From a virus (taxonomy: Duplodnaviria; Heunggongvirae; Uroviricota; Caudoviricetes), in the IMG/VR virus record IMGVR_UViG_3300012956_000001, positions 89,730-153,729 of that record: DNA of 64,000 nt. One strand, written 5' to 3'. The notes beneath the pieces were generated by a model, which did no database searches, had not been told where the DNA came from, and saw nothing but the letters and a program-made list of their open reading frames with translations. The translations under genes and the position numbers were made by a program. Positions 16,012-49,477 of the stretch are shown here, piece after piece (position 1 is the first letter of the stretch; each line of letters begins with the position of its first letter).

Positions 16012-17592
16012 ATGATCCGACTATATAACCTATTATTTGAAAGCACTGAGGAGTCTGCTCTAGATTATCTAGGCAGACTCATTCAGCAAAGTCCATTTGC
16101 TGGGAAGGTATTCCTGGCCGGCGGAGCTGTGCGTGATGAAATTTTAGGTCAACCAGTCAAGGACATTGATATTGTTGTTGCTATGCCCGATGGCGGTATT
16201 CAATTTGCAAATTGGATTACAAAAAAGGTCGGTGCATACAAGGATGGTGCCAATCCAGTAGTATATCCACGATTTGGCACCGCAAAGTTTAACCTTCGTG
16301 GTGTAACCCATAACGGTATTGATCTTTCGGGCATCGACATCGAATCTGTTATGACTCGTGGTGAAAAATATGAAACAGGATCTAGAAAGCCTGAAGTTGT
16401 ATATGCTGACCTAAAGGCCGATGCATTCCGCCGAGACCTTACGGTTAACTCACTGTACAAGGATTTGGTTACTGGTGAGATCATTGACCTAACTGGTCGA
16501 GGTCGAGCTGATATAGAAAATGGAATTGTTCGGACTCCATTAGATCCATCTGAAACGTTTGCTGATGATCCACTTCGTATGTTGCGAGCCATTCGTTTTG
16601 CAGTAAAGTACAATTGGAAAATGCCTATGTCTTTGATAAAGGCATTAAAGCAAAATGCATCGTCGCTAACAAACATCTCGTCAGAACGTATTCAGGACGA
16701 ACTTAACAAAATATTGATGACCAACAATCCAGATAAGGGACTCAAACTCTTATCGTATACCGGATTGATGAAACACATTATTCCTGAGTTGGATGCAACT
16801 CGTGGTGTAACACAAAATGCACATCACAAGGATGACGTATTTAATCACATTCTTGAAGTCGTAAAGAACACTCCAAAGAATTTGCAGGCACGACTTGGTG
16901 CATTGTTCCATGATATTGCAAAGCCACAAACAAAGTCAATGGACGAAACGGGCAAGGTTCACTTCTACGGTCACGAAGATGCTGGCGCCGAGGTTGCTAT
17001 TGAGGCAATGAAGCGTCTTCGATATCCGAATGAAATGACAAATACGGTATCGACGCTGGTCAAACACCACATGCGATTGAAGGGCGGTGGTCCAGATGGA
17101 TCTAAGCTATCCGACAAGGCGCTTCGTAAGTTTATGGCAGAAATTGGACCGGATCTAGAGCCAGCGTTGATGTTAATGCACGCAGATAACATCTCACATG
17201 CGGCCGCATCGTCTATGCCAAATCAGATAGAACGGTTGTATGATCGAATGAAGAATCTAAAACAGCCAGTTGCTGGTCCACCTAAGTTACCTGTGAATGG
17301 TAACGACATCATCAAGATGCTTGGAATTAAGCCCGGTCCTATATTACGTGACTTGCTTCAGGCCGTACAAGATGCGTGGTATGAAAATCCAGATATTGAT
17401 GCAGCTACAGCAATGGGTGTCGTTAAGAAGCAGTATGAGAAATTATCTGGTAGTGATACATCAGATACCGACATCATGAATCAAACGGTTAAGAACCCAG
17501 AAACCGGCAATGACATTCTAATCCGCACGGCATTACAATACGATGATCGACACCCAGCAAAACAAGCAGCACTAAAACGAATCAAAAAATAA
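16012..17592 (+). CDS. cca: Class II tRNA nucleotidyltransferase (CCA-adding/poly(A) polymerase family) with HD domain and C-terminal NPET module
   Basis: Motif A 'AGGAVRDEILGQPVKDIDI', flexible loop 'RGEKYETGSRKP', 'RRDLTVNSL', motif D 'DDPLRMLRAIRF', 'ISSERIQDELNKIL', HD 'LFHDIAKP'. Confidence 0.92.
   Translation: MIRLYNLLFESTEESALDYLGRLIQQSPFAGKVFLAGGAVRDEILGQPVKDIDIVVAMPDGGIQFANWITKKVGAYKDGANPVVYPRFGTAKFNLRGVTHNGIDLSGIDIESVMTRGEKYETGSRKPEVVYADLKADAFRRDLTVNSLYKDLVTGEIIDLTGRGRADIENGIVRTPLDPSETFADDPLRMLRAIRFAVKYNWKMPMSLIKALKQNASSLTNISSERIQDELNKILMTNNPDKGLKLLSYTGLMKHIIPELDATRGVTQNAHHKDDVFNHILEVVKNTPKNLQARLGALFHDIAKPQTKSMDETGKVHFYGHEDAGAEVAIEAMKRLRYPNEMTNTVSTLVKHHMRLKGGGPDGSKLSDKALRKFMAEIGPDLEPALMLMHADNISHAAASSMPNQIERLYDRMKNLKQPVAGPPKLPVNGNDIIKMLGIKPGPILRDLLQAVQDAWYENPDIDAATAMGVVKKQYEKLSGSDTSDTDIMNQTVKNPETGNDILIRTALQYDDRHPAKQAALKRIKK
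17470..17589 (+). repeat. NPET protein module, copy 1 (C-terminus of CCA enzyme)
   Basis: DIMNQTVKNPETGNDILIRTALQYDDRHPAKQAALKRIKK; coordinates approximate. Confidence 0.85.
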
Positions 17593-17619
17593 ACCCGCCT
17601 TACGGCGGGTTTTTTATTT
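17591..17619. terminator. Bidirectional intrinsic terminator between convergent genes
   Basis: AAACCCGCC-TTAC-GGCGGGTTT stem with an A-tract upstream and a T-tract downstream. Both convergent stop codons (17590-92 and 17614-16) lie at its edges. Confidence 0.9.
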
Positions 17620-18348
17620 GTACTTGTCTACTATTTGTTGTGCTAGTTTGTGAGCTGGATGATCTTCGTCATATTTAAGAGCAGTACTTATCAATATTTT
17701 ATTGTCTGTATTTGGATTTACTATTGTTTGACTCAAAATCTTAGACATATCTTTTTGATTAGATTGGGTTGATTTCGGTTGGTGTCCAACCGATGCCAAA
17801 AACTTGTTAACTGCATCTTGTGGCATTTCACCAAGATCTTTATATGGTGCGGGAGTAACAAAATGCTCATCGGTAAGATTTGCTAGTGATTTGCCGGCAG
17901 CATCATTGTCAATCACAGCAATAGTATGCTTATTTAGAATAGCAAACCATGACTTCAAAACTTTTGGATTGTTTCCCAATACGGCGATTACCGGAAGACC
18001 AGCGTTGTGAATTTTCACCGCATCAAAAATGCCTTCGGTAACAAATAGATTTGGGTTGTCCGCATCAATAAATTCAGTACCCCAAACCGCTAACTTTGCG
18101 GTTTTTTCGCTTTCTTTCGTAACCCATGTAAAGTATTTAGCTGACAATGAGTTGGTATGATCTTTCTTGTCGCCCATTGGATTGTATCGCTGATATCCAA
18201 CCAATTGACCGGACAAGTTATATAGCAAGAATGTTGCAAGTCCGTTTTCTTTATCTAAGATAACATGTATGTTATCTGGATCAAGTCCACGTTCTCGTAA
18301 GTGAGCTTCTATGCTATTAATTTGTGATGGGGTTAGTGAATCAGACAT
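17614..18348 (-). CDS. Toprim-domain (primase-core-like) protein lacking a Zn finger, with C-terminal NPET module
   Basis: 'FVTEGIFDAVKI...VIAVLG...IAVIDNDAAG' are the Toprim E and DxD motifs. SD GGAG on the minus strand. The only substantial minus-strand gene in the window. Confidence 0.8.
   Translation of the reverse strand: MSDSLTPSQINSIEAHLRERGLDPDNIHVILDKENGLATFLLYNLSGQLVGYQRYNPMGDKKDHTNSLSAKYFTWVTKESEKTAKLAVWGTEFIDADNPNLFVTEGIFDAVKIHNAGLPVIAVLGNNPKVLKSWFAILNKHTIAVIDNDAAGKSLANLTDEHFVTPAPYKDLGEMPQDAVNKFLASVGHQPKSTQSNQKDMSKILSQTIVNPNTDNKILISTALKYDEDHPAHKLAQQIVDKYK
17617..17742 (-). repeat. NPET protein module, copy 2 (C-terminus of Toprim protein)
   Basis: KILSQTIVNPNTDNKILISTALKYDEDHPAHKLAQQIVDKYK. 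Confidence 0.85.
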
Positions 18349-18376
18349 GAGTTACTCCAAAATGTACAATGTATCC

Positions 18377-18383
18377 ATAAGTA
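18377..18383 (-). promoter_or_regulatory. Putative late promoter TACTTAT for the minus-strand Toprim gene
   Basis: ATAAGTA on + reads TACTTAT on -, 28 nt upstream of the ATG at 18348. It sits back-to-back with a + strand copy. Confidence 0.5.
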
Positions 18384-18385
18384 TA

Positions 18386-18406
18386 TCCTATTTATGATAT
18401 AGGAGG
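18386..18406 (+). promoter_or_regulatory. Putative late promoter TATTTAT (18389-18395) in a hairpin that overlaps the HNH ribosome-binding site
   Basis: tcctat-ttatgat-atagga stem. The 3' arm overlaps the SD AGGAGG (18401-18406). Confidence 0.55.
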
Positions 18407-18411
18407 ATGTT

Positions 18412-18882
18412 ATGAAGAAAGCAACAAAAAAGACACGGGCCTTATCAGAATGGGAGCTCAAATTCATAGAAGCCCTATCACGAATACACAAGAGAAACGT
18501 AAACGTCAAAGCAAAGAAGCTTATGAAAAAGACGTATTCTGCTATGGCGGCTATGAAAAAGAGATCTGATGCATGTGGGGTTGATTGTACCATAACCCTA
18601 GATGACATTCGTCAACTAACCTATGAGTTCTATGGTAAGAATTGTGTCTATACAGGTAGACAACTTACATTAGAAAACATTGTATACGACCACATCATAC
18701 CAATTTCTAAGGGCGGTCCTTCTACCAAGGACAACATTCAGATCATTTCACGATTTGCTAACAACATGAAGGGATCGCTCACAGAAGACGACTTTTTAAT
18801 CTTACTGAATTGGTTGAAAAAACTTCCCGACAATTTGAGCACCGAAGTTGCATTCCGTCTTGCTGGTGGCCGGCGCAGATAA
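18412..18882 (+). CDS. Free-standing HNH endonuclease
   Basis: 'CVYTG...YDHIIPISKGGPSTKDNIQIISRFANNMKG' is an HNH motif with degenerate Zn ligands. Basic N-terminus; SD AGGAGG. Confidence 0.85.
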   Translation: MKKATKKTRALSEWELKFIEALSRIHKRNVNVKAKKLMKKTYSAMAAMKKRSDACGVDCTITLDDIRQLTYEFYGKNCVYTGRQLTLENIVYDHIIPISKGGPSTKDNIQIISRFANNMKGSLTEDDFLILLNWLKKLPDNLSTEVAFRLAGGRRR

Positions 18883-18886
18883 TCAC

Positions 18887-18915
18887 TTGACAAATCGATC
18901 TCAAGTGGTTAATAT
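18887..18915 (+). promoter_or_regulatory. Sigma70-type early promoter
   Basis: TTGACA (18887-92), 17-nt spacer, TAATAT (18910-15); the primase ATG follows 6 nt later. Confidence 0.65.
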
Positions 18916-18921
18916 TCAGTC

Positions 18922-19836
18922 ATGTCATATGAACTAACTAGTCTATTAGATTCCATACTTGGAACCCACCACAAACATGCCCACGGTGAATTTTACTGGT
19001 CGTGTCCATTCTGCCATCATGCAAAACCAAAATTAGCAATTAATGTAACCAAGGGTGCATGGCACTGCTGGGTGTGTAATGCGTCTGGCCGTAGACTCGT
19101 ATCGCTGTTTAGAAAGTTGGATTGTTCCCGCGACCAACTCGCACAGCTGGCAAAGATTCTTGATGAAGACGTATATCAGCCCAATACAACCGATCATGAA
19201 GTGGTACATCTCAATCTGCCACAAGAATTCAAACCGTTCACCGTGCCAACTAAACTTATAGAATACAAGCGAGCCCTACAATATATTACACAACGGGGAA
19301 TCACCGCGTCCGACATCATGCGGTATCAGATTGGATATTGTTCCGATGGCAACTATGCCGGTCGGATCATCATTCCATCATTTGATGCTACGGGTAAATT
19401 GAATTACTTTGTGGGTCGGTCATTTTACGAACCTACTACAATGAAGTACAAGAATCCACCAGTTAGCAAAAATGTGATTGGGTTTGATATGCACATTAAC
19501 TGGAAGTATCCCATCGTATTGTGTGAGGGTGTATACGATGCTATTGCAATTAAACGAAATGCAATTCCATTGTTGGGTAAGACGATGCCTGGTAAATTGG
19601 CAGAGAAGATTGTAATTGAAAATGTACAACACATTTACCTTGCACTTGATGCGGATGCTTTACGACAGACCGCCAGAATGGCTTCTGAATTGATTCGTGA
19701 GGGTCGGGCGGTGTATGTTGTAGATTTAGATGGTAAAGATCCTAGTGAGATTGGATTCACTCGAATGTCCGAGTTGATTAAAAATGCAAAGCCACTTGGT
19801 TTTGCAGAACTTGTTAAATTACGAGCTACTGCATGA
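18922..19836 (+). CDS. DNA primase (Zn finger + Toprim; gp61/DnaG-like)
   Basis: 'CPFCHH...WHCWVC' Zn-binding domain, 'RIIIPSFD...YFVGRSF', 'LCEGVYDA', 'LALDADA'. Confidence 0.9.
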   Translation: MSYELTSLLDSILGTHHKHAHGEFYWSCPFCHHAKPKLAINVTKGAWHCWVCNASGRRLVSLFRKLDCSRDQLAQLAKILDEDVYQPNTTDHEVVHLNLPQEFKPFTVPTKLIEYKRALQYITQRGITASDIMRYQIGYCSDGNYAGRIIIPSFDATGKLNYFVGRSFYEPTTMKYKNPPVSKNVIGFDMHINWKYPIVLCEGVYDAIAIKRNAIPLLGKTMPGKLAEKIVIENVQHIYLALDADALRQTARMASELIREGRAVYVVDLDGKDPSEIGFTRMSELIKNAKPLGFAELVKLRATA

Positions 19837-31512: not shown

Positions 31513-31569
31513 ATTCAGCATCAATGCTGAATTAGGGACTACTTATTTGAGTAGTCCCCTTTCTTTTGG
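31512..31569 (+). terminator. Two tandem perfect 9-bp hairpins; the second is followed by a T-tract and contains TACTTAT (31540-31546)
   Basis: aattcagca-tcaa-tgctgaatt (31512-31533) and gggactact-tatttg-agtagtccc (31535-31558), then ctttctttt. Confidence 0.7.
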
Positions 31570-31580: not shown

Positions 31581-34500
31581 ATGGATTTATTATTTGAAGC
31601 AAACCGCTTGGCGGGTGAATTGGCAAACGAACTTCGTAGATCGTTGATATCAGAGGCGGAAGTCAAGTCTGATAAACGAATCATTGTTGCGTACTCTGGC
31701 CACTTTCAGCCGTTTCACCAAGGACATTTCAAGATTTACAAGACATTGGTCAAGAAGTTTGGCCGTGATAATGTATACATCACAACAACGAATGAAACCG
31801 ATGAACTAGAAAATCCAATGACCTATGCTGATAAGAAGCAAGTCATTATGAAAATGTTTGATATTGAAGACGGTAAGTTTCAAGAAGTTCAAAATCCATA
31901 TGTTCCTGCCGAACTACTACAAAAGTTCAATCCAAAGGCCACATCATTCGTTACAGTTGTATCTGATGAAGATGCCGCGGTATTGTCAAAGAGCAAATAC
32001 TTCCATCCGTATGTTGAGTCACCATCACTACAAACATATGACAAGGCCGCATACTATCTGACGGTCCCAGAACTTCGTGCTACTATTGGTGGTCAGCACC
32101 TTACTGGTCCACAAATTATGCAAGTACTTGGGTCATCAAAGACATCTGACGCTATGAAAGAAAAGATCTTCCAGGCATTATACGGCAAGTCCGATGCTGG
32201 TATCTTGGATATTATTTCTAACAAGGCAAAGGATGGTGCCGAAAAAGTTGATGGAAAGTTTACCAAAACCCAAGCAACTGGACAGGCAAACAAGACATCA
32301 TACAAAAAGACAGATGCTGGTGGACAAGATACTGATGCAGATGAAGATGGTAAGTCCGACAAGACGCCGCCTATGCAACGAATGATTGTCAACCCCGACA
32401 CAGGTCGTGAGATCAAGGTACAATCTGCATTGAAGTATCCTCGTTGGAAGCCTGTATACAAGAAGGCAGAGAAGTTCTTAAAGGCCACAGGCATTGATCG
32501 TAAGGATCGTGTTAAGGAGCCCGAAGTTAACCAGCGATATCGTGCACGCGAAAAGAACATGAAGAAGGACGAGTTAGCAATATATCTTGGTGATATGTTG
32601 TCTGAACACCTACACAGCCAGTTTAGCCGAGATGGGGTGACATTAAATGTGCCCGGACTTGGCGAGGTGTTACTTAGGCTCGGACAAAACAGAACCGACG
32701 AAGTAACTCGATATCCCAAGTCAACATTACTAACCGAAGGTGCACCAAAGAGTCATATTCAACATCCATATGATGATGTTGAGATGTCGTTTAGTGACCT
32801 TAAGGGATTGGTATCACAGGCACTAACTGGTAATCTTGAGAGTGCAACAGAAAAAACTGACGGTCAGAACATTTTGTTTACCGTACGTGACGGTAAGGTA
32901 GTGTTTGCTCGCAATACACAACATACCAAAGGTAATGGTGCGGCAGCGATGGATGCCCAAGAATTCAAAGACTTTTTTGCCAAGCATGGCGATCAAGTAT
33001 CTGATTCATTTGGCCGGGCCGCCCAAGACGTACAATCAGCCGTCGATGCACTACCAGATGCAATGAAAAAGGCAGTATTCAATAACGGATCTCGGTTCGC
33101 ATCAGCCGAAATTCTAAACTCGCAGTTAGCAAATACCATTCCATATAACACAAATGTTATCATGTTGTTGAGTGTTCGGGACTATGATCCTGAAACCGGC
33201 AATCCTACCAGTATGGACATTAATGCTGCTGATGCATTAGCCGATGTTATGTCTCGTGCAGGTACAGACAAGCAGCCAACATACAAAATCACGGGCAAAA
33301 ACAAAATACAGTTTGGCACAAGTGATACAGATCGCCAAAATGCACAAAAATACACAGATGCGATCACAGAGTTACAAGCACGATATAATCTAACAGATGA
33401 CAACACCATCGGTGATTTCTTGGCAGGTCAATGGTCTGAACTTATCGATGCACAAAATGCTTGGACTCCTGAAGAGAAGGAATTGCTTCTACGTCGATTT
33501 GTTGCGGGCGATAAATCCTTTGGTGTTCGAAGCATCAAAGATCCAGCAAAGAAAGAACTGTTTTATGAGCTAGAAAAGCCTAGCAAAGAATTGCAAGCAA
33601 AGTTCATTCGATCTATCAAATCGATTGTTTTAAACGTTGGTGCTGATGCACTAAATCGTGCCACCAATCTACTTGGTCAATCTGATGGTACCCGAGAGAA
33701 GTTAAAGGCTAAGTTTAAAGATGCGGTAGAGGCCATCAAAAAGAGTGGCCAGCCTGAGTACATTGATAAGACTAAGAAGGAACTTGATCACCTAAAGGAC
33801 ATTGGAATTGACAAAATTTCTCCAGCCGAAGGCATTGTGTTCACTCACAATGGACAATTGTACAAGTTTACTGGTGCGTTTGCCCCGGTCAATCAAATTG
33901 TTAGCATTAACACGTACAAGTTAAATCCAGCCGCACGAAGTGCCGATGATGAAGTCGGAGGAGAATCGCCTACATCAGCTGCTGGTACACAACCTAAGCG
34001 TGCCCCAGTAGTCGTATATCCCGGCCGATTCCAGCCGTTCCATGCCGGTCACTACTCTGTCTACAAACACCTAGTAGACAAATATGGCAAAGAAAACGTA
34101 TATATTGGCACCAGTGATAAAACAGATGGCGCCAAGTCACCATTTAACTTTAACGAAAAGCAAAGTATTATGTCACGAATGTTCGGCATTCCTACAGATA
34201 AAATTGTTCAAGTTAAAAACCCATATGCACCAAAAGAAATTACAGATCCGTTCCCACAGGACACGCCGTTCATTACAGCGCTCAGTGAAAAAGAAGCAGA
34301 ACGATTGAGTGTAGGCAATTATTACAAGCCATTGCCGCAAGATGGCAATTCTCTTGGTAACTACAGAGATGTTGGATACTTTACTGTTGTGCCCGACTTT
34401 GAAGCGGATGTTGATGGACAAAACATCTCTGGCACCGCAATCCGATCTGTATTGAGTGATCCTCAACGATCAGTTGAAGACAAGAAGAAAATGTTTGCTA

Positions 34501-35810
34501 CAATGTACGGTAAATTTGATCAAGATGTATTTGACTTAATCACCAGCAAACTAGCCACGGCGACTGATCCGGTGAAGAAGACACGAAAGGCAGCAATGGC
34601 CGATCCAGCCACCCAGCGCCAGTCCGCACAGCCAGATGACCGTGCAAAAGGCAAGGGCGATATACTCAATAAGACCATCCGCAACCCAGAAACGGATAAC
34701 GATATTTTGGTTAAAACGGCTCTCAAGTATCCTAAAGATCACCCAGCATACAAGGCAGCCGCTAAATTAGTTCGCAACGAAGTAGTTATTTTAGAAGGCG
34801 GTAATGCTGTAGAAGCTAATAGCAAAATTCCAAATGAATTTGCACAGAGCACGGCACAGCATGCCGCTAACATGGTTGGATTTGGTAAAATTGCTGGTAC
34901 ATTGGTAGGCAGTACGTTCAAGCCTATTATGAACGATCTCGATTTTGCAACCGATATTGATGACGTAAAAAAGGTCATCGGATACACGGGTACAGACAAG
35001 AAAGAATTCTTTGTAGCATTGAAACAGTATCTTACCGATAAGGGCATCGAGGCCACGATTACACCGGGCTTTCAACAGTTTAGTTTAAGTGTCCCGTTGA
35101 CCGATTCAACTGGCAAACAACAACCTGCCGTGGGCGATGATGGTAAGTCTGGCTCGCAGCCAGGCAATGTACAGATTGATTTTATGATGGGCGACCTACA
35201 GTTCATGAAGCGATTCTTAACAAACGGCGACACAAGCAATACCAGTTCATCATATCGTAACAACTTGTTTATGGTCATTCTACCAAATTTGGCAATGGAC
35301 ACAGATACGCCCGGTGTCAAGAAACGATTCTTGATTAACATGCGAGATGGTATCTACGAGGAATACTTTACAGAGAAGCCAAACGGTAAGCGTGAAACGG
35401 TTAGTAAAAAGCTTGTATCTAATGATGTAGACTTTCTTGCCAAGGTAATGTTTGGTCCTAAGTCTACATTTGCCGAAATTGATACATATGAAAAGTTAGT
35501 AGATCGACTACAAAAGCCTGATGTTTCGTTCCGTGATAAGTTGCCAAAGATTGTGGCCGATTACGAAACTATGTTGACAAAGATGAAAATGGCACCTGCT
35601 AAGCAATTGCCATCGGCCGACAAGAAGGCACCGTCAGGCGAAAAGCAGGCCGAACCAGATGCAGTAAAGCAGGTGCCGTCTGATGTCGGATCGAAGAAAG
35701 TTCGCAATCCAGAAACGGACAATGACATCTTGGTTAAGACCGCATTAAAATATGATGCAGACCACCCCGCACACAAAGCAGCCGAAAAGGTTGTAAGGAA
35801 TACTAAATGA
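31581..35810 (+). CDS. Multidomain nucleotidyltransferase (putative polyprotein): HxGH cytidyl/adenylyltransferase, KxDG ligase-like, second HxGH domain, pol-beta-like NTase, and three NPET modules
   Basis: ATG at 31581 (MDLLFE) preferred over GTG 31566. Motifs 'YSGHFQPFHQGH', 'EKTDGQN...EGIVF...YKFTG', 'YPGRFQPFHAGH...ISGTAIR', 'GSTFKPIMNDLDF...VQIDF'. Confidence 0.8.
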   Translation: MDLLFEANRLAGELANELRRSLISEAEVKSDKRIIVAYSGHFQPFHQGHFKIYKTLVKKFGRDNVYITTTNETDELENPMTYADKKQVIMKMFDIEDGKFQEVQNPYVPAELLQKFNPKATSFVTVVSDEDAAVLSKSKYFHPYVESPSLQTYDKAAYYLTVPELRATIGGQHLTGPQIMQVLGSSKTSDAMKEKIFQALYGKSDAGILDIISNKAKDGAEKVDGKFTKTQATGQANKTSYKKTDAGGQDTDADEDGKSDKTPPMQRMIVNPDTGREIKVQSALKYPRWKPVYKKAEKFLKATGIDRKDRVKEPEVNQRYRAREKNMKKDELAIYLGDMLSEHLHSQFSRDGVTLNVPGLGEVLLRLGQNRTDEVTRYPKSTLLTEGAPKSHIQHPYDDVEMSFSDLKGLVSQALTGNLESATEKTDGQNILFTVRDGKVVFARNTQHTKGNGAAAMDAQEFKDFFAKHGDQVSDSFGRAAQDVQSAVDALPDAMKKAVFNNGSRFASAEILNSQLANTIPYNTNVIMLLSVRDYDPETGNPTSMDINAADALADVMSRAGTDKQPTYKITGKNKIQFGTSDTDRQNAQKYTDAITELQARYNLTDDNTIGDFLAGQWSELIDAQNAWTPEEKELLLRRFVAGDKSFGVRSIKDPAKKELFYELEKPSKELQAKFIRSIKSIVLNVGADALNRATNLLGQSDGTREKLKAKFKDAVEAIKKSGQPEYIDKTKKELDHLKDIGIDKISPAEGIVFTHNGQLYKFTGAFAPVNQIVSINTYKLNPAARSADDEVGGESPTSAAGTQPKRAPVVVYPGRFQPFHAGHYSVYKHLVDKYGKENVYIGTSDKTDGAKSPFNFNEKQSIMSRMFGIPTDKIVQVKNPYAPKEITDPFPQDTPFITALSEKEAERLSVGNYYKPLPQDGNSLGNYRDVGYFTVVPDFEADVDGQNISGTAIRSVLSDPQRSVEDKKKMFATMYGKFDQDVFDLITSKLATATDPVKKTRKAAMADPATQRQSAQPDDRAKGKGDILNKTIRNPETDNDILVKTALKYPKDHPAYKAAAKLVRNEVVILEGGNAVEANSKIPNEFAQSTAQHAANMVGFGKIAGTLVGSTFKPIMNDLDFATDIDDVKKVIGYTGTDKKEFFVALKQYLTDKGIEATITPGFQQFSLSVPLTDSTGKQQPAVGDDGKSGSQPGNVQIDFMMGDLQFMKRFLTNGDTSNTSSSYRNNLFMVILPNLAMDTDTPGVKKRFLINMRDGIYEEYFTEKPNGKRETVSKKLVSNDVDFLAKVMFGPKSTFAEIDTYEKLVDRLQKPDVSFRDKLPKIVADYETMLTKMKMAPAKQLPSADKKAPSGEKQAEPDAVKQVPSDVGSKKVRNPETDNDILVKTALKYDADHPAHKAAEKVVRNTK
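32373..32483 (+). repeat. NPET protein module, copy 3
   Basis: MQRMIVNPDTGREIKVQSALKYPRWKPVYKKAEKFLK (most diverged copy). Confidence 0.75.
34659..34778 (+). repeat. NPET protein module, copy 4
   Basis: DILNKTIRNPETDNDILVKTALKYPKDHPAYKAAAKLVRN, immediately followed by EVVILE|GGNAV. Confidence 0.85.
35688..35807 (+). repeat. NPET protein module, copy 5 (C-terminus of 1410-aa protein)
   Basis: GSKKVRNPETDNDILVKTALKYDADHPAHKAAEKVVRNTK. Confidence 0.85.
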
Positions 35811-38743: not shown

Positions 38744-39240
38744 CCACGGCACAAATACCCAGACATCTGATGCCACAGATTCCAAAGAACAAACTTTCTG
38801 AGTTTTGTTCCTATTTAGAAACCAAGAATATTACTAGCAAAACTAGTAAACGACCCGTCAAATGGTTGGTTCCGGTACAAAAGCACGTTAACCAAGATAA
38901 GGTAGACAATATTATGTCAGACCCATCGGTTATTGATGCTTCTCCGATTATTGTAACTGCCGAGGGCTATATTGTAGATGGTCACCACAGATGGATTGCT
39001 GCTAAAAAATTGGGTATTACTGAGATAAACTGTATAGTTTGTGACTGTCCCCTAAAGGAATTTCTAAAACTGGCGCATGATTTTGATCATAGTTTTGTAA
39101 AGTCTGTTAGTGAACTTACTACTTATGGTAGATTAGGTGTACTGTTAGAATCTCGTAGGGACATTGACCGCCGCATAAATTCTAAGTTACGTGAATACAT
39201 CAGTCGTGAAATCAAAAATATACTAGAGATAAACTCATGA
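38731..39240 (+). CDS. ParB/Sulfiredoxin-domain protein
   Basis: 'LVPVQ...PIIVTAEGYIVDGHHRWIAA' is the ParB/Srx catalytic motif. Confidence 0.8.
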   Translation: MAPITTAQIPRHLMPQIPKNKLSEFCSYLETKNITSKTSKRPVKWLVPVQKHVNQDKVDNIMSDPSVIDASPIIVTAEGYIVDGHHRWIAAKKLGITEINCIVCDCPLKEFLKLAHDFDHSFVKSVSELTTYGRLGVLLESRRDIDRRINSKLREYISREIKNILEINS

Positions 39241-39545
39241 TTAAGCTTTCCACGCTTCTTACAGAAGCTATGAACAAAATTACCACAGTTCAGGCGGCCA
39301 AGCTGTTTAAGTCCTTGAAACTTGATAAAACCGACGTAAAGATTAAAGAGTTTTACTTAGGTATGAATGTTGAGCTAGAACATCAGAATGTAACTCAGGG
39401 TGATGTTAAGAAGACCGCGTTATTGGTATTGGCGCATCTTAAAGAATCACCAGATTACTACACCAACCTTCAAAAAGTTGAAGAACCGGCCGCAGAGATG
39501 GGTGTAAGTCAGTCGCCTGCACCACAAGCGCCTGGTCAGTATTAA
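39237..39545 (+). CDS. DUF5661-like small protein with capsid-targeting-like N-terminus
   Basis: 'GMNVELEH...AHLKESPDYYTNL'; N-terminus MIKLSTLLTE. Confidence 0.7.
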   Translation: MIKLSTLLTEAMNKITTVQAAKLFKSLKLDKTDVKIKEFYLGMNVELEHQNVTQGDVKKTALLVLAHLKESPDYYTNLQKVEEPAAEMGVSQSPAPQAPGQY

Positions 39546-41533: not shown

Positions 41534-42403
41534 ATGAGAGGAATTACCGTTAGTCATAGTAAAATCAAAAATACAGGTGTGCTATTTGAGGTGTTGGTCC
41601 GTCAAATAACATCAGATACACTAGAAGGACGATCTGAGTCACCTGCATTACAGCTATTAAAGAAGTATTTTCATGCCGGCCGTGAATTAGGTAAAGAATT
41701 GCAGTTGTATCAGGCATTTATGAATGCTGATCGACTCACCGAAAGCCGAGCCGTTCAATTTTTCAATATGGTCATTACACAACGTCAAAAGCTTGACGAA
41801 ATGCAATTGACCCGTGAAAAATATGAACTTATCAAAGAACTCAAGAAGAATTATGATTTAGAGACGTTTCTTTCATGTAAGATTCCGTCGTATAAATTGC
41901 ATGCGTCCATCTACAAGACATTTCTAGCAGAAGCCCGTCATAGTGGTGATACCATTATGAACATTCAAGACGTGGCATCTGCTAGATTTACGTTGTTAGA
42001 ACACCTATTGGGCCACGGTCGCAAGGCAGAACACAAGGATACGGCACTTCTCGAAGAATTTAAGAGCCAGACAGAAGATTTACGATTACTTACTTACAAG
42101 ATTTTAATTGATCGATTTAATGAAAAGTATGATGAACTAAATGATAAGCAGAAAGATTTACTTCGTGAATATATTAACGACATTTCAAGCAAAAATACTT
42201 TGTTAGAGTATGTTCATCGAGAAGTGCCTGCTCTACAAAAGCAACTACGTGAAAAGAGTCGGTCAATCAAAGATCGAGTAGTTCAAATTAAGTTGAACGA
42301 AGTAATTACACAGCTTAATAACATTGGAAGTAAGAACGGCGTTCGTGATAATGAAGTTACCGCAATGATGATCGGCTATCAAATTGAAAAGGAGCTCAAC
42401 TAA
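41534..42403 (+). CDS. Conserved head-module protein, alpha-helical
   Basis: 'HSKIKNTGVLFEVLVRQITSD' N-terminus; lies between portal and prohead protease. Confidence 0.7.
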   Translation: MRGITVSHSKIKNTGVLFEVLVRQITSDTLEGRSESPALQLLKKYFHAGRELGKELQLYQAFMNADRLTESRAVQFFNMVITQRQKLDEMQLTREKYELIKELKKNYDLETFLSCKIPSYKLHASIYKTFLAEARHSGDTIMNIQDVASARFTLLEHLLGHGRKAEHKDTALLEEFKSQTEDLRLLTYKILIDRFNEKYDELNDKQKDLLREYINDISSKNTLLEYVHREVPALQKQLREKSRSIKDRVVQIKLNEVITQLNNIGSKNGVRDNEVTAMMIGYQIEKELN

Positions 42404-43146
42404 TGAGTACTGCACTACGAAAGCTCATTCGTGAGCTGGTGGAAGAAGAATTGGAACTGGATGAAACCAGTTCGTCTGGAGCTGCTGGTCCATACAATAC
42501 ACCATTTGCGTTTCGAGGCGACTCCGCAGCTGGTAAGGCCAAGTCAAAGAAAATTGCTAGCCAGGCAGGATATGAACCAGTAGACAAGAAGGCAGAAAAG
42601 GCCGATCCAATGGGCAATCAAGAAGTAGAAACCGTACCATTTGGCAAAAAGGGAGCCGGTGCGCTTAAGAAGCCTGCTAAGGAGAAGGTTGTACAAGAAG
42701 AGACACATTCTCCAGCTTCGTCACACCAAGATCCAGTTAAATGTCCAAACTGTGGTGCGAAGTATAAAGATACACACGTTTGTCCTAAGACAAAGCAGGT
42801 GATGACTCGTGCCAAGGGACGACCACTGGCATCAAAGAAGAATATGGGCGTCGATTATAGCACACGCACACCAAAGAAAGAAGTTGCCGATGGTGTAGTT
42901 TCCGAAAATCGATATACAGAATACAAGATGTCTGAGGGATCGCCGTCCAAGAAGATTGGTACTGCCATCCGTGAAATCAATCGTCAAATTAATGAAGTAG
43001 ATCGTATGCTTCGTATGAATGAACGACTCAAGAAAGAGTCTGGCGTACAAGGCGATCAGCTTTGGAAGTCTACTGCTCGTGGATTGACCAAGCTAGAGGG
43101 TCGATTGAACACATTGTCTACTCGTATCCGCAACCTGAAGTCATAA
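42403..43146 (+). CDS. Putative prohead core/internal head protein
   Basis: MSTALRKLIRELVEEELELDE|TSSSGAAGPYNTPFAF; several x-x-E sites (VVQE|E, VVSE|N); C-terminal coiled coil. Confidence 0.65.
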   Translation: MSTALRKLIRELVEEELELDETSSSGAAGPYNTPFAFRGDSAAGKAKSKKIASQAGYEPVDKKAEKADPMGNQEVETVPFGKKGAGALKKPAKEKVVQEETHSPASSHQDPVKCPNCGAKYKDTHVCPKTKQVMTRAKGRPLASKKNMGVDYSTRTPKKEVADGVVSENRYTEYKMSEGSPSKKIGTAIREINRQINEVDRMLRMNERLKKESGVQGDQLWKSTARGLTKLEGRLNTLSTRIRNLKS

Positions 43147-43147
43147 T

Positions 43148-43735
43148 ATGCCACAACTATTAGTAGAATACTTTCCATTAGAATATGACGCACGTGCTGT
43201 CTTGACTGAGGCCACGGCCAATCCCAATGCGCCCATTAAGGTCAAGGCCATTTTGCAACGTGCTGATGCTAAGAATCAAAACGGTAGAGTATATCCAAAA
43301 GAAATTTTGATGCGAGAAGCCTCAAAGTATGAACAAGAATTTGTTGGTCAGCGCCGCGCACTTGGCGAGCTGGACCATCCAGATTCGACCGTTGTCAATT
43401 TGAGAAACGTATCACATAACATCAATGAAGTACATTGGGAAGGTGCAGACTTAATGGGCACCATTGAAGTGTTGTCCACCCCGTCAGGCAATATTGTTAA
43501 GGAATTGATGAAAAATGGTATTCGATTGGGTGTTTCTTCTCGTGGTGTTGGGTCTATTAAAAATCTTGGCGAGGGTGCCGTTGAAGTAGATGATGACTTT
43601 AGTTTAATCTGTTTTGATATCGTTTCGAATCCTTCCACGCATGGCGCCTTCTTGAATGAAGGTGTTGGTGCACAGGCCAATCCATATGCTAATATAGAAA
43701 AGTTAGTGTATGACTTTTTTGCTGAGCTAAAATAA
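43148..43735 (+). CDS. gp21: Prohead core protease (T4 gp21-like)
   Basis: 'KNQNGRVYP', 'ALGELDHP', 'GVSSRGVGS', 'FDIVSNPSTHGA'. Confidence 0.95.
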   Translation: MPQLLVEYFPLEYDARAVLTEATANPNAPIKVKAILQRADAKNQNGRVYPKEILMREASKYEQEFVGQRRALGELDHPDSTVVNLRNVSHNINEVHWEGADLMGTIEVLSTPSGNIVKELMKNGIRLGVSSRGVGSIKNLGEGAVEVDDDFSLICFDIVSNPSTHGAFLNEGVGAQANPYANIEKLVYDFFAELK

Positions 43736-43736: not shown

Positions 43737-43979
43737 ATGTCTAAGATAAAGCTATCCGAACTTCGCAATATCATCCGTGAAGAATTAATCAATACCCTAG
43801 TTGAATTTGAAACTAAGGATATGCCAAACGGAGCAACATGGCGTACTGCTGGTAAGGGCTGGGCCGCAAAAAATTCAAGTGGTGAGACTAACTATTGGTA
43901 TGGTAAGGACGAAGCAAAAAACAAAAAAAGTGCCGATGATTGGGCGCGTGGTTCTTCTAAAACCGCAACTACGAAGTAA
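43737..43979 (+). CDS. Small putative internal head protein
   Basis: MSKIKLSELRNIIREELINTLVE| followed by a short Trp/Gly-rich beta module. Confidence 0.7.
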   Translation: MSKIKLSELRNIIREELINTLVEFETKDMPNGATWRTAGKGWAAKNSSGETNYWYGKDEAKNKKSADDWARGSSKTATTK

Positions 43980-43990
43980 GGAGCATAGTT

Positions 43991-44638: not shown

Positions 44639-44641
44639 CAC

Positions 44642-45382
44642 ATGAAGAAACTTGAACTTCGTCAAATTATTCGTGAAGAAATACTAGAAACCCTCCTTCA
44701 ACAAGAGGGTTCTACTGCTGCAAAAGAAGCTGAACGTCTCGGGTTGGATTACATGAGCTTCGGTCGTTGGGGCAAGAATGGACAAGTTACCCACAAGTCA
44801 GAGAAGGGTAAGCTTATTCCAGTGTCCCGAGATCAGGTTCAAAAGACCACAGGCATGAACTTTGAAAAGCCTACGTCAAATATATTACATGCAAAGCGTA
44901 AGGATGGAACCTCACGACCAGCAGCGGATTATAATCCACAATCTGGTAAAGTGACTTCTTGGAATTACAATTCCCCCGACGATCAGCGCCGCAAACAAAA
45001 TACCAAAAATATTTTTGCAGATCCTCTGCAAAAAAGAGCCACGCATATAGATTATGCAAAAGATGATCGTCCCGAGTCGCCGCCTCATGAACGTACACCA
45101 TCACAACTTACTCGTGAAAAGGCACATAGATATGAAGTTATTGCAGACCCTTATCAAACAAAAATTGATGATGCAATTTATAGTAACACATTAAAACCAT
45201 ACAAAACATATAGCATGGAAGAATTTACTCAACTAGCTGGAATTTCTCCCACTGTTGCAAAGTTCATTTCATTAAAAGACACTTTGTTTTTAAAGTTCTA
45301 TGATGATTATGTTCCATCATTTGAATTAAACAAAGATGGGTCGGTTCTTATCAATGATATTGCACGATATAGAGACGATTAA
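44642..45382 (+). CDS. Putative internal head protein
   Basis: MKKLELRQIIREEILETLLQQE| then 'AERLGLDYMSFGRWGKNGQVTHKSEKGKL'. Confidence 0.65.
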   Translation: MKKLELRQIIREEILETLLQQEGSTAAKEAERLGLDYMSFGRWGKNGQVTHKSEKGKLIPVSRDQVQKTTGMNFEKPTSNILHAKRKDGTSRPAADYNPQSGKVTSWNYNSPDDQRRKQNTKNIFADPLQKRATHIDYAKDDRPESPPHERTPSQLTREKAHRYEVIADPYQTKIDDAIYSNTLKPYKTYSMEEFTQLAGISPTVAKFISLKDTLFLKFYDDYVPSFELNKDGSVLINDIARYRDD

Positions 45383-45738: not shown

Positions 45739-45751
45739 TGCCTGAGGATAT

Positions 45752-46027
45752 ATGAACCGAAAAAAGCAAGAACAAAGTAAGCCGAGTGGATTAGAAGTGG
45801 TAGTAAACCACACGGGCGATTACAAAAAAGACAAGTTAAATTTCGATCATGCACTCCGGGATTTTAAAAAGAAAATCAAGAAGAGTGGATTAATGAATGA
45901 CCTTCGTAATCGTGAAGCATATATGTCGCCATCAGCGTATAAGCGTTGGCGTAAGAACGAAGCGGTGAAACGAAAAAAGCGTGACGAGAAGAAACAAGAT
46001 TGGTCACGCGGACAAAGTGATGGATAA
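45752..46027 (+). CDS. rpsU: Ribosomal protein bS21 homologue
   Basis: 'NFDHALRDFKKKIKKSGLMNDLRNREAYMSPSAYKRWRKNEAVKR' matches the bS21 pattern (ALRxFK...R-x2-Y-xxP S-xx-R-R). Located among head genes. Confidence 0.85.
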   Translation: MNRKKQEQSKPSGLEVVVNHTGDYKKDKLNFDHALRDFKKKIKKSGLMNDLRNREAYMSPSAYKRWRKNEAVKRKKRDEKKQDWSRGQSDG

Positions 46028-46063
46028 TTGTTTATAATTTGTGCGTTATAATTCTTTACTCTC

Positions 46064-46165: not shown

Positions 46166-46180
46166 ATGGAATTACTAACT

Positions 46181-47353: not shown

Positions 47354-47379
47354 TCAACTTAAACCATAAGGAATAACCT

Positions 47380-48984: not shown

Positions 48985-49015
48985 TCCTAAGATTCACGTA
49001 ACGTGATGAGGGTAC

Positions 49016-49055
49016 AGAGGGGGTAGCTTAGAAATAGGCTACCCCCTTTCTGTTT
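49016..49055 (+). terminator. Intrinsic terminator after the capsid gene
   Basis: AGGGGGTAGCTTA-GAAA-TAGGCTACCCCCT stem with GNRA loop, followed by TTCTGTTT. Confidence 0.85.
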
Positions 49056-49058
49056 GAC

Positions 49059-49065
49059 TATTTAT
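49059..49065 (+). promoter_or_regulatory. Putative late promoter TATTTAT
   Basis: Just downstream of the capsid terminator, 25 nt before ATG 49091; short acta-ttta-tagt palindrome. Confidence 0.55.
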
Positions 49066-49090
49066 AGTTGTTACCTTTGTGGAGTTTTGT

Positions 49091-49477
49091 ATGAAATTAT
49101 CGGAAATATTGAACCGAATTGACGAGGATGCACAACGAGATGCTATGTTGGCACAAACAGTAAAGAATCCAGAAACGGATCAAGATATTACTGTAAAAAC
49201 TGCTTTGTCGTATCCAAAAGAACATCCTGCTCGAAAGGCGGCGGCAAAGATTTATGCACAGTTTATGCAAAAGGCAAATCCAGCATCTGCTCAATTTAAA
49301 CCTCGACCACGACCAATGCGACCAGAAGATGATCCTTGGTATGCTCAATATGGCGATGATGCATATGATGCAAAGCGAGACTATGAACTATCTGGTGATG
49401 ACAGTTTGTTACCTCCTAGCCTCCAACAAACTACGCGATCATATAGACCCGGCCGACTCACACGCCGTAGATTTTAA
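49091..49477 (+). CDS. Small protein: capsid-targeting-like leader plus NPET module (copy 6, ~49145-49260)
   Basis: SD GGAG then ATG 49091. MKLSEILNRIDE|DAQRDAMLAQTVKNPETDQDITVKTALSYPKEHPARKAAAKIY. Confidence 0.8.
   Translation: MKLSEILNRIDEDAQRDAMLAQTVKNPETDQDITVKTALSYPKEHPARKAAAKIYAQFMQKANPASAQFKPRPRPMRPEDDPWYAQYGDDAYDAKRDYELSGDDSLLPPSLQQTTRSYRPGRLTRRRF

What the first reader, a model, noticed from the sequence alone, without database searches (positions are those of the whole stretch)
16012..49477. Candidate new system: a ~40-aa 'NPET' tag shared by unrelated enzymes, probably marking virion cargo
The module (T/M/K)-V/I-x-NP(E/D/N)T-x-x-x-I-x-(I/V)-x-(T/S)AL-x-Y-x3-(H/K)P-(A/V)-x-K/Q-x-A occurs 6 times in 4 proteins spread over 33 kb and both strands. 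It is the C-terminus of the CCA-HD enzyme (~17470-17589) and of the Toprim protein (~17617-17742, minus strand). It occurs three times in the 1410-aa nucleotidyltransferase (~32373, ~34659, ~35688) and once in a small protein right after the capsid gene (~49145). It always lies C-terminal to a catalytic domain and is never part of one. Three of the four carriers also have capsid-targeting-like N-termini. Three carriers have their own TAYTTAT motif, and the CCA gene is downstream of one in an operon. Inference: a portable tag that docks enzymes to the prohead core or DNA, routes them through the portal/tail at ejection, or assembles them into one complex in the newly infected cell. I do not recognise it as a named domain.
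Basis: partly seen in the sequence, partly recalled or inferred. Interest (0 to 1): 0.92.

Follow-up and report, generated by a model that had tools for sequence, protein, structure and literature searches.

The report
Unnamed mini-domain on phage head-cargo enzymes
A real, previously unnamed 40-residue protein module is attached to many unrelated enzymes in a group of uncultured T4-like phages, and their gene positions, promoters and leader peptides suggest these enzymes are packed into the phage head and delivered with the DNA, though this is untested.

Summary
Six copies of a ~40-aa module (L-x3-I-x-NP-x-TG-x2-I-x-V-x-T/S-A-L-x-Y-x3-HPA-x-K-x-A) lie in four proteins, and there are no others in the 217.7-kb genome.

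The copies are old. Third-codon identity is 26-39%, so they are kept by selection on the protein.

A profile of the module finds 485 protein clusters, all metagenomic and viral. It has no Pfam, NCBIfam or PHROG family, and no PDB or AlphaFold DB match. The model is a basic mini-domain: an NPxTG beta-hairpin plus a helix.

Its fusion partners include CCA-adding enzyme, Toprim, NMNAT-like and ligase-like transferases, HAD phosphatases, P-loop kinases, topoisomerase IB, Mom, an ADP-ribosyltransferase, SAM lyase and GNAT.

The virion-cargo idea gains indirect support:
- carriers have the clade's late promoter (TAYTTAT) and never a sigma70-like one;
- 48 of 84 carriers elsewhere lie within 3 kb of head or packaging genes;
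- many start with T4 capsid-targeting-like leaders ending hydrophobic-x-E;
- a gp21-like protease is encoded.

The module is probably not the targeting signal itself. Mel-JY01 has a leader-bearing homologue without it, and two carrier families lie away from head genes.

My best reading is a basic "internal-protein handle". Packaging, cleavage and binding are all untested.

The parts
16012..17592 (+). Carrier 1: class II CCA-adding enzyme with HD domain, 526 aa. The module is at the C-terminus.
   Evidence: Pfam PolyA_pol 4e-20, PolyA_pol_RNAbd, HD and tRNA_NucTran2_2. PHROG tRNA nucleotidyltransferase 9e-65. NCBIfam CCA models, below cut-off.
16012..16041 (+). Leader MIRLYNLLFE, a CTS-like N-terminal extension ending hydrophobic-x-E.
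   Evidence: Seen in the translation. The homologue in L009 has MIRFRLLLE, while those in L007/L008 lack the extension.
17476..17589 (+). Module copy 1
17614..18348 (-). Carrier 2: Toprim protein without a zinc finger, 244 aa. The module is at the C-terminus and there is no leader.
   Evidence: Pfam Toprim_2 2.7e-5. PHROG 849, named DNA primase, 1.7e-41. A separate full primase lies at 18922-19836.
17623..17736 (-). Module copy 2
18377..18383 (-). Late-type promoter motif TACTTAT, 35 nt upstream of the Toprim gene.
31540..31546 (+). Late-type promoter motif TACTTAT, 41 nt upstream of the 1409-aa gene. It overlaps a hairpin.
31581..35810 (+). Carrier 3: 1409-aa multi-enzyme protein. Order: leader MDLLFE, HxGH (NMNAT-like) transferase 1, module, KxDG ligase-like domain, HxGH transferase 2, module, uncharacterised C-terminal domain, module.
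   Evidence: Pfam CTP_transf_like in two stretches. NCBIfam NMNAT models, below cut-off. Alignment with homologues. Mel-JY01 has the transferase plus ligase without the module.
32373..32486 (+). Module copy 3, the most diverged (RWKP in place of xxHP).
32724..32738 (+). TLLTE, followed by GAPKSH. A conserved hydrophobic-x-E | G/A junction in front of the ligase-like domain and a candidate prohead-protease site.
   Evidence: Conserved in homologues, including one protein (P0021) that starts 19 aa before it. Enrichment test. Cleavage is inferred only.
34665..34778 (+). Module copy 4
34782..34796 (+). VVILE, followed by GGNAV. A conserved junction directly after module copy 4 and a candidate protease site.
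   Evidence: Cleavage is inferred only.
35688..35801 (+). Module copy 5
43148..43735 (+). T4 gp21-like prohead protease, the enzyme that would remove the leaders.
   Evidence: PHROG 207, head maturation protease, 1.3e-51.
49059..49065 (+). Late-type promoter motif TATTTAT, 32 nt upstream of the 128-aa gene and just after the capsid-gene terminator hairpin.
49091..49477 (+). Carrier 4: 128-aa protein between the capsid and neck-adaptor genes. Order: leader MKLSEILNRIDE, module, then a Pro/Arg/acid-rich tail.
   Evidence: Translation. No Pfam, PHROG or NCBIfam family. Homologues sit in the same slot in L015, L020 and L021. The Atlas model is mostly low-confidence outside the module.
49148..49261 (+). 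Module copy 6

Best explanation
WHAT IT IS. The six copies belong to an autonomous, basic mini-domain of about 40 residues. The model is a short helix, a beta-hairpin closed by an NPxTG turn, and a longer helix. It has no name in current libraries.

It is a mobile module of one clade of uncultured T4-like phages. Their major capsid proteins are 55-74% identical to this one where compared. Polar linkers join the module to one end of many unrelated enzymes that act on nucleic acids, nucleotides or cofactors.

HOW I THINK IT WORKS. I read the carriers as head-internal cargo in the style of T4 Alt and the T4 internal proteins:
1. They are made late.
2. Many are drawn into the prohead core by an N-terminal leader ending hydrophobic-x-E.
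3. The gp21-like protease trims them. The 1409-aa protein would be cut into single enzymes, each keeping one module.
4. They stay in the head and enter the next cell with the DNA.

There they could act before any phage gene is expressed, for example in tRNA end repair and CCA rebuilding, NAD-related chemistry or SAM destruction.

The module would be the shared 'handle' of this cargo. It is a small basic unit that holds the enzyme on a polyanion: first the very acidic scaffold core, then the packaged DNA. It is probably not the primary targeting signal.

SHOWN: existence, conservation, predicted fold, distribution, fusion partners, gene context, promoter class, leaders, and the presence of the protease.

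INFERRED: packaging, cleavage, ejection, and what the module binds.

MY ODDS: carriers are head cargo, about 0.6. Given that, the module binds the scaffold core 0.35, binds DNA for co-ejection 0.35, or acts only after ejection 0.3.
For: The module is a real domain.
- Six copies at E 1e-22 to 6e-25, with no others in the genome.
- Selection acts on the protein.
- 485 cluster representatives at E<=1e-3 and 118 at E<=1e-10 among 1.84 billion proteins.
- AlphaFold2 with a 140-row alignment gives pLDDT 82 overall, with blocks of 91-93 over residues 11-40.
- Mean net charge is +3.8, with basic columns on the outer face of the hairpin and along one face of the helix.

The fusion partners are diverse. 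They include CTP_transf_like, topoisomerase IB, AAA_33/Zeta kinases, Toprim, Mom, GNAT, HAD, an ADP-ribosyltransferase, SAM lyase and ParB_N.

Late promoter class.
- TAYTTAT occurs 44 times on the + strand and 8 on the - strand.
- It precedes 24 genes, while a sigma70-like promoter precedes 16, and only one gene has both.
- It lies upstream of the tail tube, scaffold, a head-core gene and endonuclease VII, and of three carriers.
- In seven related genomes it lies 24-50 nt upstream of portal, core, neck and scaffold genes.
- Of 73 carriers elsewhere, 32 have it within 130 nt upstream and none has a sigma70-like promoter. Random windows give 6% and 0.5%.

Gene context. 48 of 84 carriers in other viral contigs lie within 3 kb of head or packaging genes:
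- the multi-enzyme protein is about 1.26 kb upstream of the terminase in nearly every locus that holds it;
- a CCA enzyme follows the neck adaptor (L007/L008);
- a Toprim protein and homologues of the 128-aa protein lie between the capsid and adaptor genes (L017, L020, L021);
- HAD and HAD-Mom proteins lie in front of the scaffold gene, the HAD-Mom one between protease and scaffold (L010, L080);
- a GNAT-module-DUF5661 fusion lies in front of the portal gene (L014).

Leaders.
- 49 of 125 carriers have [LIMF][LIMFV]xE in residues 3-26, against 18 of 220 genes in this genome.
- Eight of those 18 are head-cluster genes or carriers.
- Leaders of the MK(L/I)xKSQL(K/R)E(L/I)I(R/K) type on carriers resemble the N-termini of small genes in the head clusters of this and seven related genomes.

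Protease and precedent.
- A gp21-like protease is encoded.
- The capsid protein has LLTE and LVSE in its N-terminal region, the second at residue 64.
- In T4, a 10-residue capsid targeting sequence suffices for packaging and delivery of foreign proteins. Alt loses a 7-residue propeptide. gp21 cuts after Glu (PMC9026906).
- Injected multi-enzyme 'polyvalent' proteins are known (PMC5512222).

Charge. The scaffold is very acidic, with net charge -37 and pI 4.4.
Against: - There is no direct evidence of packaging, cleavage or binding. No deposited phage carries the module, so no virion proteome applies.
- Two of the larger carrier families in the viral-contig loci (HAD about 280 aa, SAM lyase about 240 aa) are not near head genes. 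The HAD one sits among sugar-metabolism-like genes.
- Several carriers have no leader: the Toprim protein here, the CCA enzyme in L007/L008 and the HAD in L010.
- The hairpin tip is acidic (E 67% at column 15), unlike DNA-inserting arms.
- Most conserved residues look structural, so no binding surface stands out.
- The conserved 'LxE|GG' junctions could simply be the first strand of the following domains. The carriers are related to each other, so the statistics overstate independence.
- The 17-residue leader profile alone is not significant on this genome (E about 0.5).
- That TAYTTAT is a late promoter rests on which genes it precedes, not on transcript data.
Confidence: 0.45

Rival explanations
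1. Substrate tether only. The module is a small non-specific RNA/DNA-binding domain that keeps cytoplasmic repair and modification enzymes on their nucleic-acid substrates. The carriers are not packaged, and their late expression and head-cluster positions are incidental.
For: The module is basic (+3.8) with recurrent Lys/Arg columns. Most partners act on nucleic acids or their ends: CCA enzyme, ligase-like domain, PNK-like kinase, HAD phosphatase, Toprim, topoisomerase IB, Mom and ParB_N. A topoisomerase IB carrier lies next to an RNA ligase and a kinase/HD gene. There is a local NPxTGxxIxV likeness to the HU arm, though it is not significant (E 0.27).
Against: SAM lyase, GNAT and sugar-island HAD carriers do not need a nucleic-acid tether. 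This reading does not explain the late promoter class, the repeated placement inside head clusters or the CTS-like leaders. The hairpin tip is acidic.
Confidence: 0.2
2. The module itself is the capsid-targeting or ejection tag. It would dock enzymes to the scaffold core or portal, and the N-terminal leaders would be secondary.
For: Some leaderless carriers lie inside or next to head clusters. Examples are the CCA enzyme after the neck adaptor in L007/L008 and the HAD in front of the scaffold gene in L010. The Toprim protein here has only a late promoter. After the predicted cuts, every enzyme unit would end or begin with one module. A basic module could pair with the acidic scaffold.
Against: Mel-JY01, in which no module was found, has a leader-bearing NTase-ligase homologue without it. 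Its head cluster, and that of phage immuto, hold leader-bearing genes too. No head-cluster gene is specific to module-bearing phages, so there is no candidate receptor. The T4 precedent is an N-terminal leader alone (PMC9026906). Two of the larger carrier families lie away from head genes.
Confidence: 0.15
3. Protein-protein adaptor. The modules bind each other, or a common phage or host hub, so that the enzymes work as one complex such as an RNA-repair or anti-defence assembly in the infected cell.
For: The same module sits on healing, sealing and CCA-adding activities that would act in sequence. CCA and Toprim carriers are neighbours here and in L009. Small proteins that are little more than the module exist.
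Against: The conserved positions are almost all core or turn residues, so no conserved interaction surface stands out. The partners are too varied for one pathway. Some of the tiny 'stand-alone' copies look like fragments next to larger carriers (L035).
Confidence: 0.1
4. Passive structural cap. The module is a stable terminal mini-fold that only protects linker ends from the prohead protease or aids folding, and it has no binding function.
For: Conservation is mainly in structural residues. The module always sits at domain boundaries or termini.
Against: This does not explain why the module persists at protein level on so many different enzymes across 485 protein clusters. It also does not explain its consistently basic surface.
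Confidence: 0.05

Closest known systems
T4 capsid-targeted internal proteins and Alt (CTS plus gp21 processing)
   Same: Both have a T4-like head gene set with a gp21-like protease. Both have short N-terminal leaders ending hydrophobic-x-E on otherwise unrelated proteins. The carriers are small basic proteins or enzymes, including ADP-ribosyltransferases, and are expressed late. The repertoire differs between related phages (PMC9026906).
   Different: T4 cargo has no shared folded module, and the 10-residue leader alone suffices. Here a 40-residue domain is also shared. It occurs at either end or between units, and sometimes without a leader. The cargo would include CCA-adding, ligase-like, NMNAT-like, Toprim, topoisomerase IB and SAM-lyase enzymes, none of which is known as T4 head cargo. 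Packaging is not shown here.
Polyvalent proteins of phages and conjugative elements (Iyer, Burroughs, Anand, de Souza, Aravind 2017, PMC5512222)
   Same: Both are large proteins that string together enzymes of unrelated chemistry, encoded beside virion genes. They are predicted to be packaged, processed and injected to act in the first minutes of infection. They share domains such as ADP-ribosyltransferase, Toprim, ParB and RNA-end enzymes.
   Different: Phage examples described in that paper include fusions to MuF or portal domains and built-in peptidases. Here the units are separated by a repeated mini-domain, and the candidate sites fit a gp21-type protease. The same units also occur as single genes that each carry the module.
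HU/IHF beta-arm
   Same: There is a local sequence likeness, NPxTGxxIxV, at a beta-hairpin turn.
   Different: The likeness covers only 14 residues, with E 0.27. There is no HU body, the hairpin tip is acidic, and no fold match was found. It is not a member.

Membership tests
T4-type capsid-targeted (CTS) head cargo | Short N-terminal propeptide ending (L/I)-x-E that is removed by the prohead protease | tested here: inconclusive
   At sequence level it is present in three of the four carriers here (MIRLYNLLFE, MDLLFE, MKLSEILNRIDE) and in 49 of 125 relatives, against 18 of 220 genome genes. The Toprim carrier lacks it. Cleavage itself cannot be tested.
T4-type capsid-targeted (CTS) head cargo | gp21-family prohead protease and T4-like head gene set in the same genome | tested here: met
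   PHROG 207, head maturation protease, 1.3e-51, plus portal and terminase. The gp23-like capsid protein is 54% identical to those of Mel-JY01 and immuto.
T4-type capsid-targeted (CTS) head cargo | Late expression together with head genes | tested here: inconclusive
   Carriers share the TAYTTAT motif with structural genes and lack sigma70-like promoters. There are no transcript data.
T4-type capsid-targeted (CTS) head cargo | Physical presence in the mature head and delivery into the cell | not testable with these tools
   No cultured or deposited phage holds the module, so no virion proteome is available.
Polyvalent proteins (PMC5512222) | Two or more domains of disparate biochemical activity in one polypeptide, encoded beside virion or transfer genes | tested here: met
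   The 1409-aa protein has two HxGH transferases, a KxDG ligase-like domain and a further domain. It lies about 1.26 kb upstream of the terminase in nearly every locus that holds it.
Polyvalent proteins (PMC5512222) | Packaging anchor (MuF or portal fusion) or own peptidase domain | tested here: not met
   No MuF, portal or peptidase domain was found in the carriers here by Pfam or PHROGs.
HU/IHF DNA-binding proteins | About 90-aa dimeric helical body with two beta-arms, and a significant family match | tested here: not met
   Only a 14-residue local match at E 0.27. There is no Pfam hit at E<=1.
Any named domain family (Pfam-A, NCBIfam, PHROGs; 2-Cys adaptor or H-NS/Lsr2-type domains recalled from memory as leads) | Profile match over the module | tested here: not met
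   No family covers the module in Pfam at E<=1, NCBIfam at E<=0.1 or PHROGs at E<=0.01. Fold searches gave no match, but that is inconclusive for so small a domain.

The most novel reading that the evidence does not exclude
A clade of T4-like phages loads its heads with a changeable kit of ready-made enzymes: tRNA end-repair and CCA rebuilding, NMNAT-like transferases, Toprim, topoisomerase IB, SAM lyase, ADP-ribosyltransferase and Mom. Each enzyme is addressed or retained by the same 40-residue module, and large precursors are cut into single tagged enzymes by the prohead protease. The module would then be a new, transferable protein-delivery address, distinct from the T4 leader peptide.
Probability: 0.25. 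Interest if true: 0.85.

Novelty: new variant of a known kind. Interest (0 to 1): 0.66.

Why it matters
If the carriers are head cargo, phages can deliver repair and anti-defence enzymes with the DNA. These could include tRNA repair, NAD-related chemistry and SAM removal. Such enzymes would act before any phage gene is expressed, which is when abortive-infection and restriction systems strike. Known virion cargo would then extend well beyond T4 Alt and the internal proteins.

The module is a compact new domain family, seen in 485 protein clusters, and gives a simple marker for finding such cargo in metagenomes. If it proves to be a retention or delivery handle, it could be used to load foreign proteins into phage heads.

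Even if the cargo idea fails, this is a widespread, unnamed viral domain with a confident predicted fold and a clear set of fusion partners.

Tried and rejected
- Homodimer prediction of the module: no verdict (score 0.00, controls not run). I do not use it either way.
- Fold searches with the AlphaFold2 model gave nothing above noise. Foldseek against the PDB had a best E of 3. VIA-align against 48,161 chains had a best Z of 3.3. AlphaFold DB clusters had a best E of 0.8. For a 40-residue domain this shows neither novelty of fold nor absence of relatives.
- PDB sequence profiles gave only the HU-arm and isocitrate-dehydrogenase 'NPxTGxxI' turn (E 0.06-0.3). I rejected this as homology.
- tblastn of a module copy, a 65-aa module protein and the 128-aa protein against 50,697 deposited phage records found no match.
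- A profile search found no match in Mel-JY01, immuto, RM378 or LR756508. The positive control on the window's own genome worked.
It worked with the six-row alignment.
- A 17-residue leader profile searched on this genome was not significant (best E about 0.5), although one head-cluster gene was among the top hits. I rely on motif counts and inspection instead.
- I looked for a head-cluster gene present only in module-bearing phages, as a possible receptor. None was found.
- Toprim and CCA homologues were sought in relatives where no module was found. There were none, apart from a weak CCA-like hit in LR756508.
- The Atlas feature search for the 128-aa protein gave no usable hit. Its structure search only recovered other module carriers, namely the SAM-lyase and DUF2608 clusters.
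- Sequencing runs: no RNA holder is listed. The DNA is held by activated-sludge runs, one of which may be the source.
- Literature: no paper on Mel-JY01 and no virion proteome of immuto-like phages was found in the library.

Full report
**1. The observation**

Translating the four ORFs shows the module by eye. A regular-expression and MAFFT pass lines up six copies without gaps. Nine positions are invariant.

An HMM of the six, run on every open frame of 30 aa or more in all six frames of the 217,729-bp genome, returns only these six. Their domain E-values are 1e-22 to 6e-25, and the next hit has E about 0.9. An independent search with a deeper profile gives the same six.

The copies are not recent DNA repeats. 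Amino-acid identity is 34-76%, while third-codon-position identity is 26-39%, close to random. They are therefore old copies kept by selection on the protein.

Two gene starts should move to ATG 31581 and ATG 49091, as in the homologues.

**2. What the module is**

No Pfam-A family covers it at E<=1, no PHROG at E<=0.01 and no NCBIfam model at E<=0.1. PDB sequence profiles give only a 14-residue likeness to the HU arm tip and to an isocitrate dehydrogenase turn (E 0.06-0.3).

A profile search of 1.84 billion cluster representatives finds 485 proteins at E<=1e-3 and 118 at E<=1e-10. The ten I looked up are metagenomic. Where a source gives a name it is 'hypothetical protein' or a generic enzyme name. 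In the best 150 hits the module is N-terminal 50 times, C-terminal 63 times and internal 85 times, the internal ones mostly in large multi-unit proteins.

With a 140-copy alignment, AlphaFold2 gives a confident model. Mean pLDDT is 82, with blocks of 91-93 over residues 11-40. The order is a short helix, a beta-hairpin closed by the NPxTG turn, a helical turn and a 17-residue helix.

Neither Foldseek (PDB, AlphaFold DB clusters) nor an exhaustive VIA-align pass finds a match above noise. For so small a fold this is inconclusive.

Nearly all conserved positions are core or turn residues. The surface is basic (mean net charge +3.8). Recurrent Lys/Arg columns lie on the outer face of the hairpin and along one face of the helix, while the hairpin tip is acidic. 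The linkers to neighbouring domains are polar and low in complexity.

**3. What it is attached to**

Pfam scans of 95+10+10+10 carriers give the following partners:
- cytidylyltransferase-like HxGH transferases;
- eukaryotic-type topoisomerase IB;
- AAA_33/Zeta-type P-loop kinases;
- Toprim;
- Mom;
- GNAT;
- HAD phosphatases;
- an ADP-ribosyltransferase;
- SAM lyase;
- ParB_N;
- DUF5661.

In the window the carriers are:
- a CCA-adding enzyme with an HD domain;
- a zinc-finger-less Toprim protein, with a complete primase 570 nt away;
- a 1409-aa protein with two NMNAT-like domains, a KxDG ligase-like domain and a further domain;
- a 128-aa protein that is little more than leader, module and tail.

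Single-linkage clustering of the module-masked carriers joins the large proteins with the single-enzyme genes. The same enzyme units therefore occur either strung together or as separate genes that each carry the module.

**4. Which phages**

The capsid protein is gp23-like. It is 54% identical to those of Microcystis phage Mel-JY01 and Flavobacterium phage immuto, and 39% to that of Rhodothermus phage RM378. No module was found in any of these.

IMG/VR holds 124 stretches that encode the module. Five complete 180-274-kb genomes carry 2-4 copies each, and their capsid proteins are 59-61% identical to this one. Three of five further large fragments have the same capsid type.

The module thus marks one uncultured clade of T4-like phages. 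This genome comes from activated sludge.

**5. Link to the head and the late programme**

*(a) Promoters.* TAYTTAT is strongly strand-biased, with 44 on the + strand against 8 on the - strand. It precedes 24 genes. A sigma70-like TTGAC(A/T)-N16-18-TAnnnT precedes 16 others, and only one gene has both.

TAYTTAT genes with a PHROG match include the tail tube, a tail-associated protein and endonuclease VII. The motif also precedes the scaffold-position gene at 46166 and the head-core gene at 41534. The true primase has a textbook sigma70-like promoter.

In seven related genomes, including the two cultured ones, the motif sits 24-50 nt upstream of portal, core, neck and scaffold genes. Three carriers here have it at -32 to -41.

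Of 73 carriers elsewhere, 32 have it and none has a sigma70-like promoter. Random windows give 6% and 0.5%. Most of the rest directly abut an upstream gene.

*(b) Synteny.* 48 of 84 carriers in other contigs lie within 3 kb of a head or packaging gene:
- the multi-enzyme protein is about 1.26 kb upstream of the terminase in nearly every locus that holds it;
- a CCA carrier follows the neck adaptor;
- a Toprim carrier and the homologues of the 128-aa protein lie between the capsid and adaptor genes;
- HAD and HAD-Mom carriers lie in front of the scaffold gene, the HAD-Mom one between protease and scaffold;
- a GNAT-module-DUF5661 fusion replaces the DUF5661 gene in front of the portal gene.

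*(c) Leaders.* Many carriers begin with M-x(2-8)-hydrophobic-hydrophobic-x-E, or with MK(L/I)xKSQL(K/R)E(L/I)I(R/K)..I.E. The short motif is found in 39% of carriers against 8% of this genome's genes. Eight of the 18 background hits are the capsid, scaffold, protease and other head-cluster genes plus two carriers.

A stricter pattern for the long leader matches only three ORFs in the whole genome, all flanking the protease gene. That pattern was partly derived from them. The same kind of N-terminus recurs on small genes in the head clusters of seven related genomes.

*(d) Protease.* The genome encodes a gp21-like protease. The capsid protein has LVSE at residue 64, close to where T4 gp23 is cut.

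*(e) Unit junctions.* In the multi-enzyme proteins, hydrophobic-x-E followed by G/A recurs at unit starts just after a module. It also occurs after a 19-residue leader in a protein that starts at that unit.

*(f) Precedent.* In T4, a 10-residue capsid targeting sequence is enough to package and deliver foreign proteins. Alt loses a 7-residue propeptide, gp21 cuts after Glu, and internal proteins vary between relatives (PMC9026906). Injected multi-enzyme 'polyvalent' proteins are an established concept (PMC5512222).

**6. What speaks against a simple 'packaging tag'**

- Mel-JY01, in which no module was found, has a leader-bearing NTase-ligase homologue whose two enzymes are joined directly (IIAE|GG).
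- The head clusters of Mel-JY01 and immuto also hold leader-bearing genes.
- No head-cluster gene is specific to module-bearing phages.
- Two of the larger carrier families seen (HAD about 280 aa, and SAM lyase about 240 aa, whose Atlas cluster has 1300 members) lie away from head genes. The HAD family sits among sugar-metabolism-like genes.
- Some carriers lack a leader.
- The junction motif may simply belong to the following domains.
- The carriers are related, so the counts overstate independence.

**7. Reading**

The carriers are most likely (about 0.6) late-made, head-internal cargo of the T4 Alt / internal-protein kind. Within that, I take the module to be a shared basic handle rather than the address itself. 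It could hold the enzyme on the acidic scaffold core (net charge -37) and later on the packaged DNA, or it could act after ejection.

The rivals are a plain nucleic-acid tether on cytoplasmic enzymes, the module as the true tag, a complex-forming adaptor, and a passive cap. They are listed with their tests. Nothing here measures packaging, cleavage or binding.

**8. Novelty**

The domain is unnamed and widespread in viral metagenomes. The general principle of T4-type head cargo and polyvalent injected proteins is known. A shared folded module on the cargo, and this set of enzymes as cargo, would be new. I rate it a new variant of a known kind.

The by-sequence look-up of earlier notes found the module in no other genome.

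Noticed in passing
window 45752-46027 (+): A phage-encoded ribosomal protein bS21 homologue (Pfam Ribosomal_S21, 5e-10) sits inside the head gene cluster between the protease and scaffold genes. Mel-JY01 annotates an RpsU in the same region.
   Followed up: partly
whole genome; window examples 18922 (early type), 54881 and 46166 (late type): There are two nearly exclusive promoter classes. A sigma70-like TTGAC(A/T)-N16-18-TAnnnT precedes 16 genes. C-T-A-Y-T-T-A-T-R precedes 24 genes, 23-117 nt upstream. Only one gene has both. The second motif is conserved in front of head genes in seven related genomes.
   Followed up: yes
window 42403-43146, 43737-43979, 44642-45382 (+): Three genes flank the prohead protease and share an N-terminal L(R/K)xxI(R/K)E(E/L) leader. 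The last two have no homologue in the head clusters of relatives. This looks like a variable 'internal protein' slot like the variable internal-protein genes of T4-type phages.
   Followed up: partly
window 39237-39545 (+); L014:803-1888: A DUF5661 gene with the leader MIKLSTLLTE lies just upstream of the portal gene. In another phage the same slot holds a GNAT-module-DUF5661 fusion.
   Followed up: partly
L085:5586-10418: In a 326-kb metagenomic contig, a topoisomerase IB that carries the module follows an RNA ligase gene and a kinase/HD (PNK-like) gene. This hints at an RNA-end role for this topoisomerase.
   Followed up: no
L093:244-2163 (Microcystis phage Mel-JY01): A 639-aa homologue of the multi-enzyme protein has a leader MGKLINILLSE, one HxGH transferase and the ligase-like domain, but no module. 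It is the nearest cultured-phage protein on which packaging could be tested.
   Followed up: partly
window 17470-17742; L009:4531-6880: The CCA and Toprim genes converge here, so the two module-coding ends lie about 30 nt apart on opposite strands. In another phage the same two genes are in tandem and overlap. The pairing is conserved but the orientation is not.
   Followed up: partly
L081, L065, L046 (around 5260-6120): The most common single-enzyme carrier among the fetched viral-contig loci (HAD/DUF2608, about 280 aa) lies in a block with a P-loop kinase, a GHMP-type kinase, SGNH-like genes and a nucleotidyltransferase-like gene. This is a sugar-metabolism-like island, not a head cluster.
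   Followed up: partly
window 772-1293 (+): An ORF starts MTKSDLQKLIRQEI, a leader-like N-terminus outside the head cluster. It was one of the top hits of the (non-significant) leader profile.
   Followed up: no
window 37124-38743 vs L011 and L035/L036: In some relatives the large terminase matches in two separated pieces. This suggests an insertion, possibly an intron or homing element, in the terminase gene.
   Followed up: no
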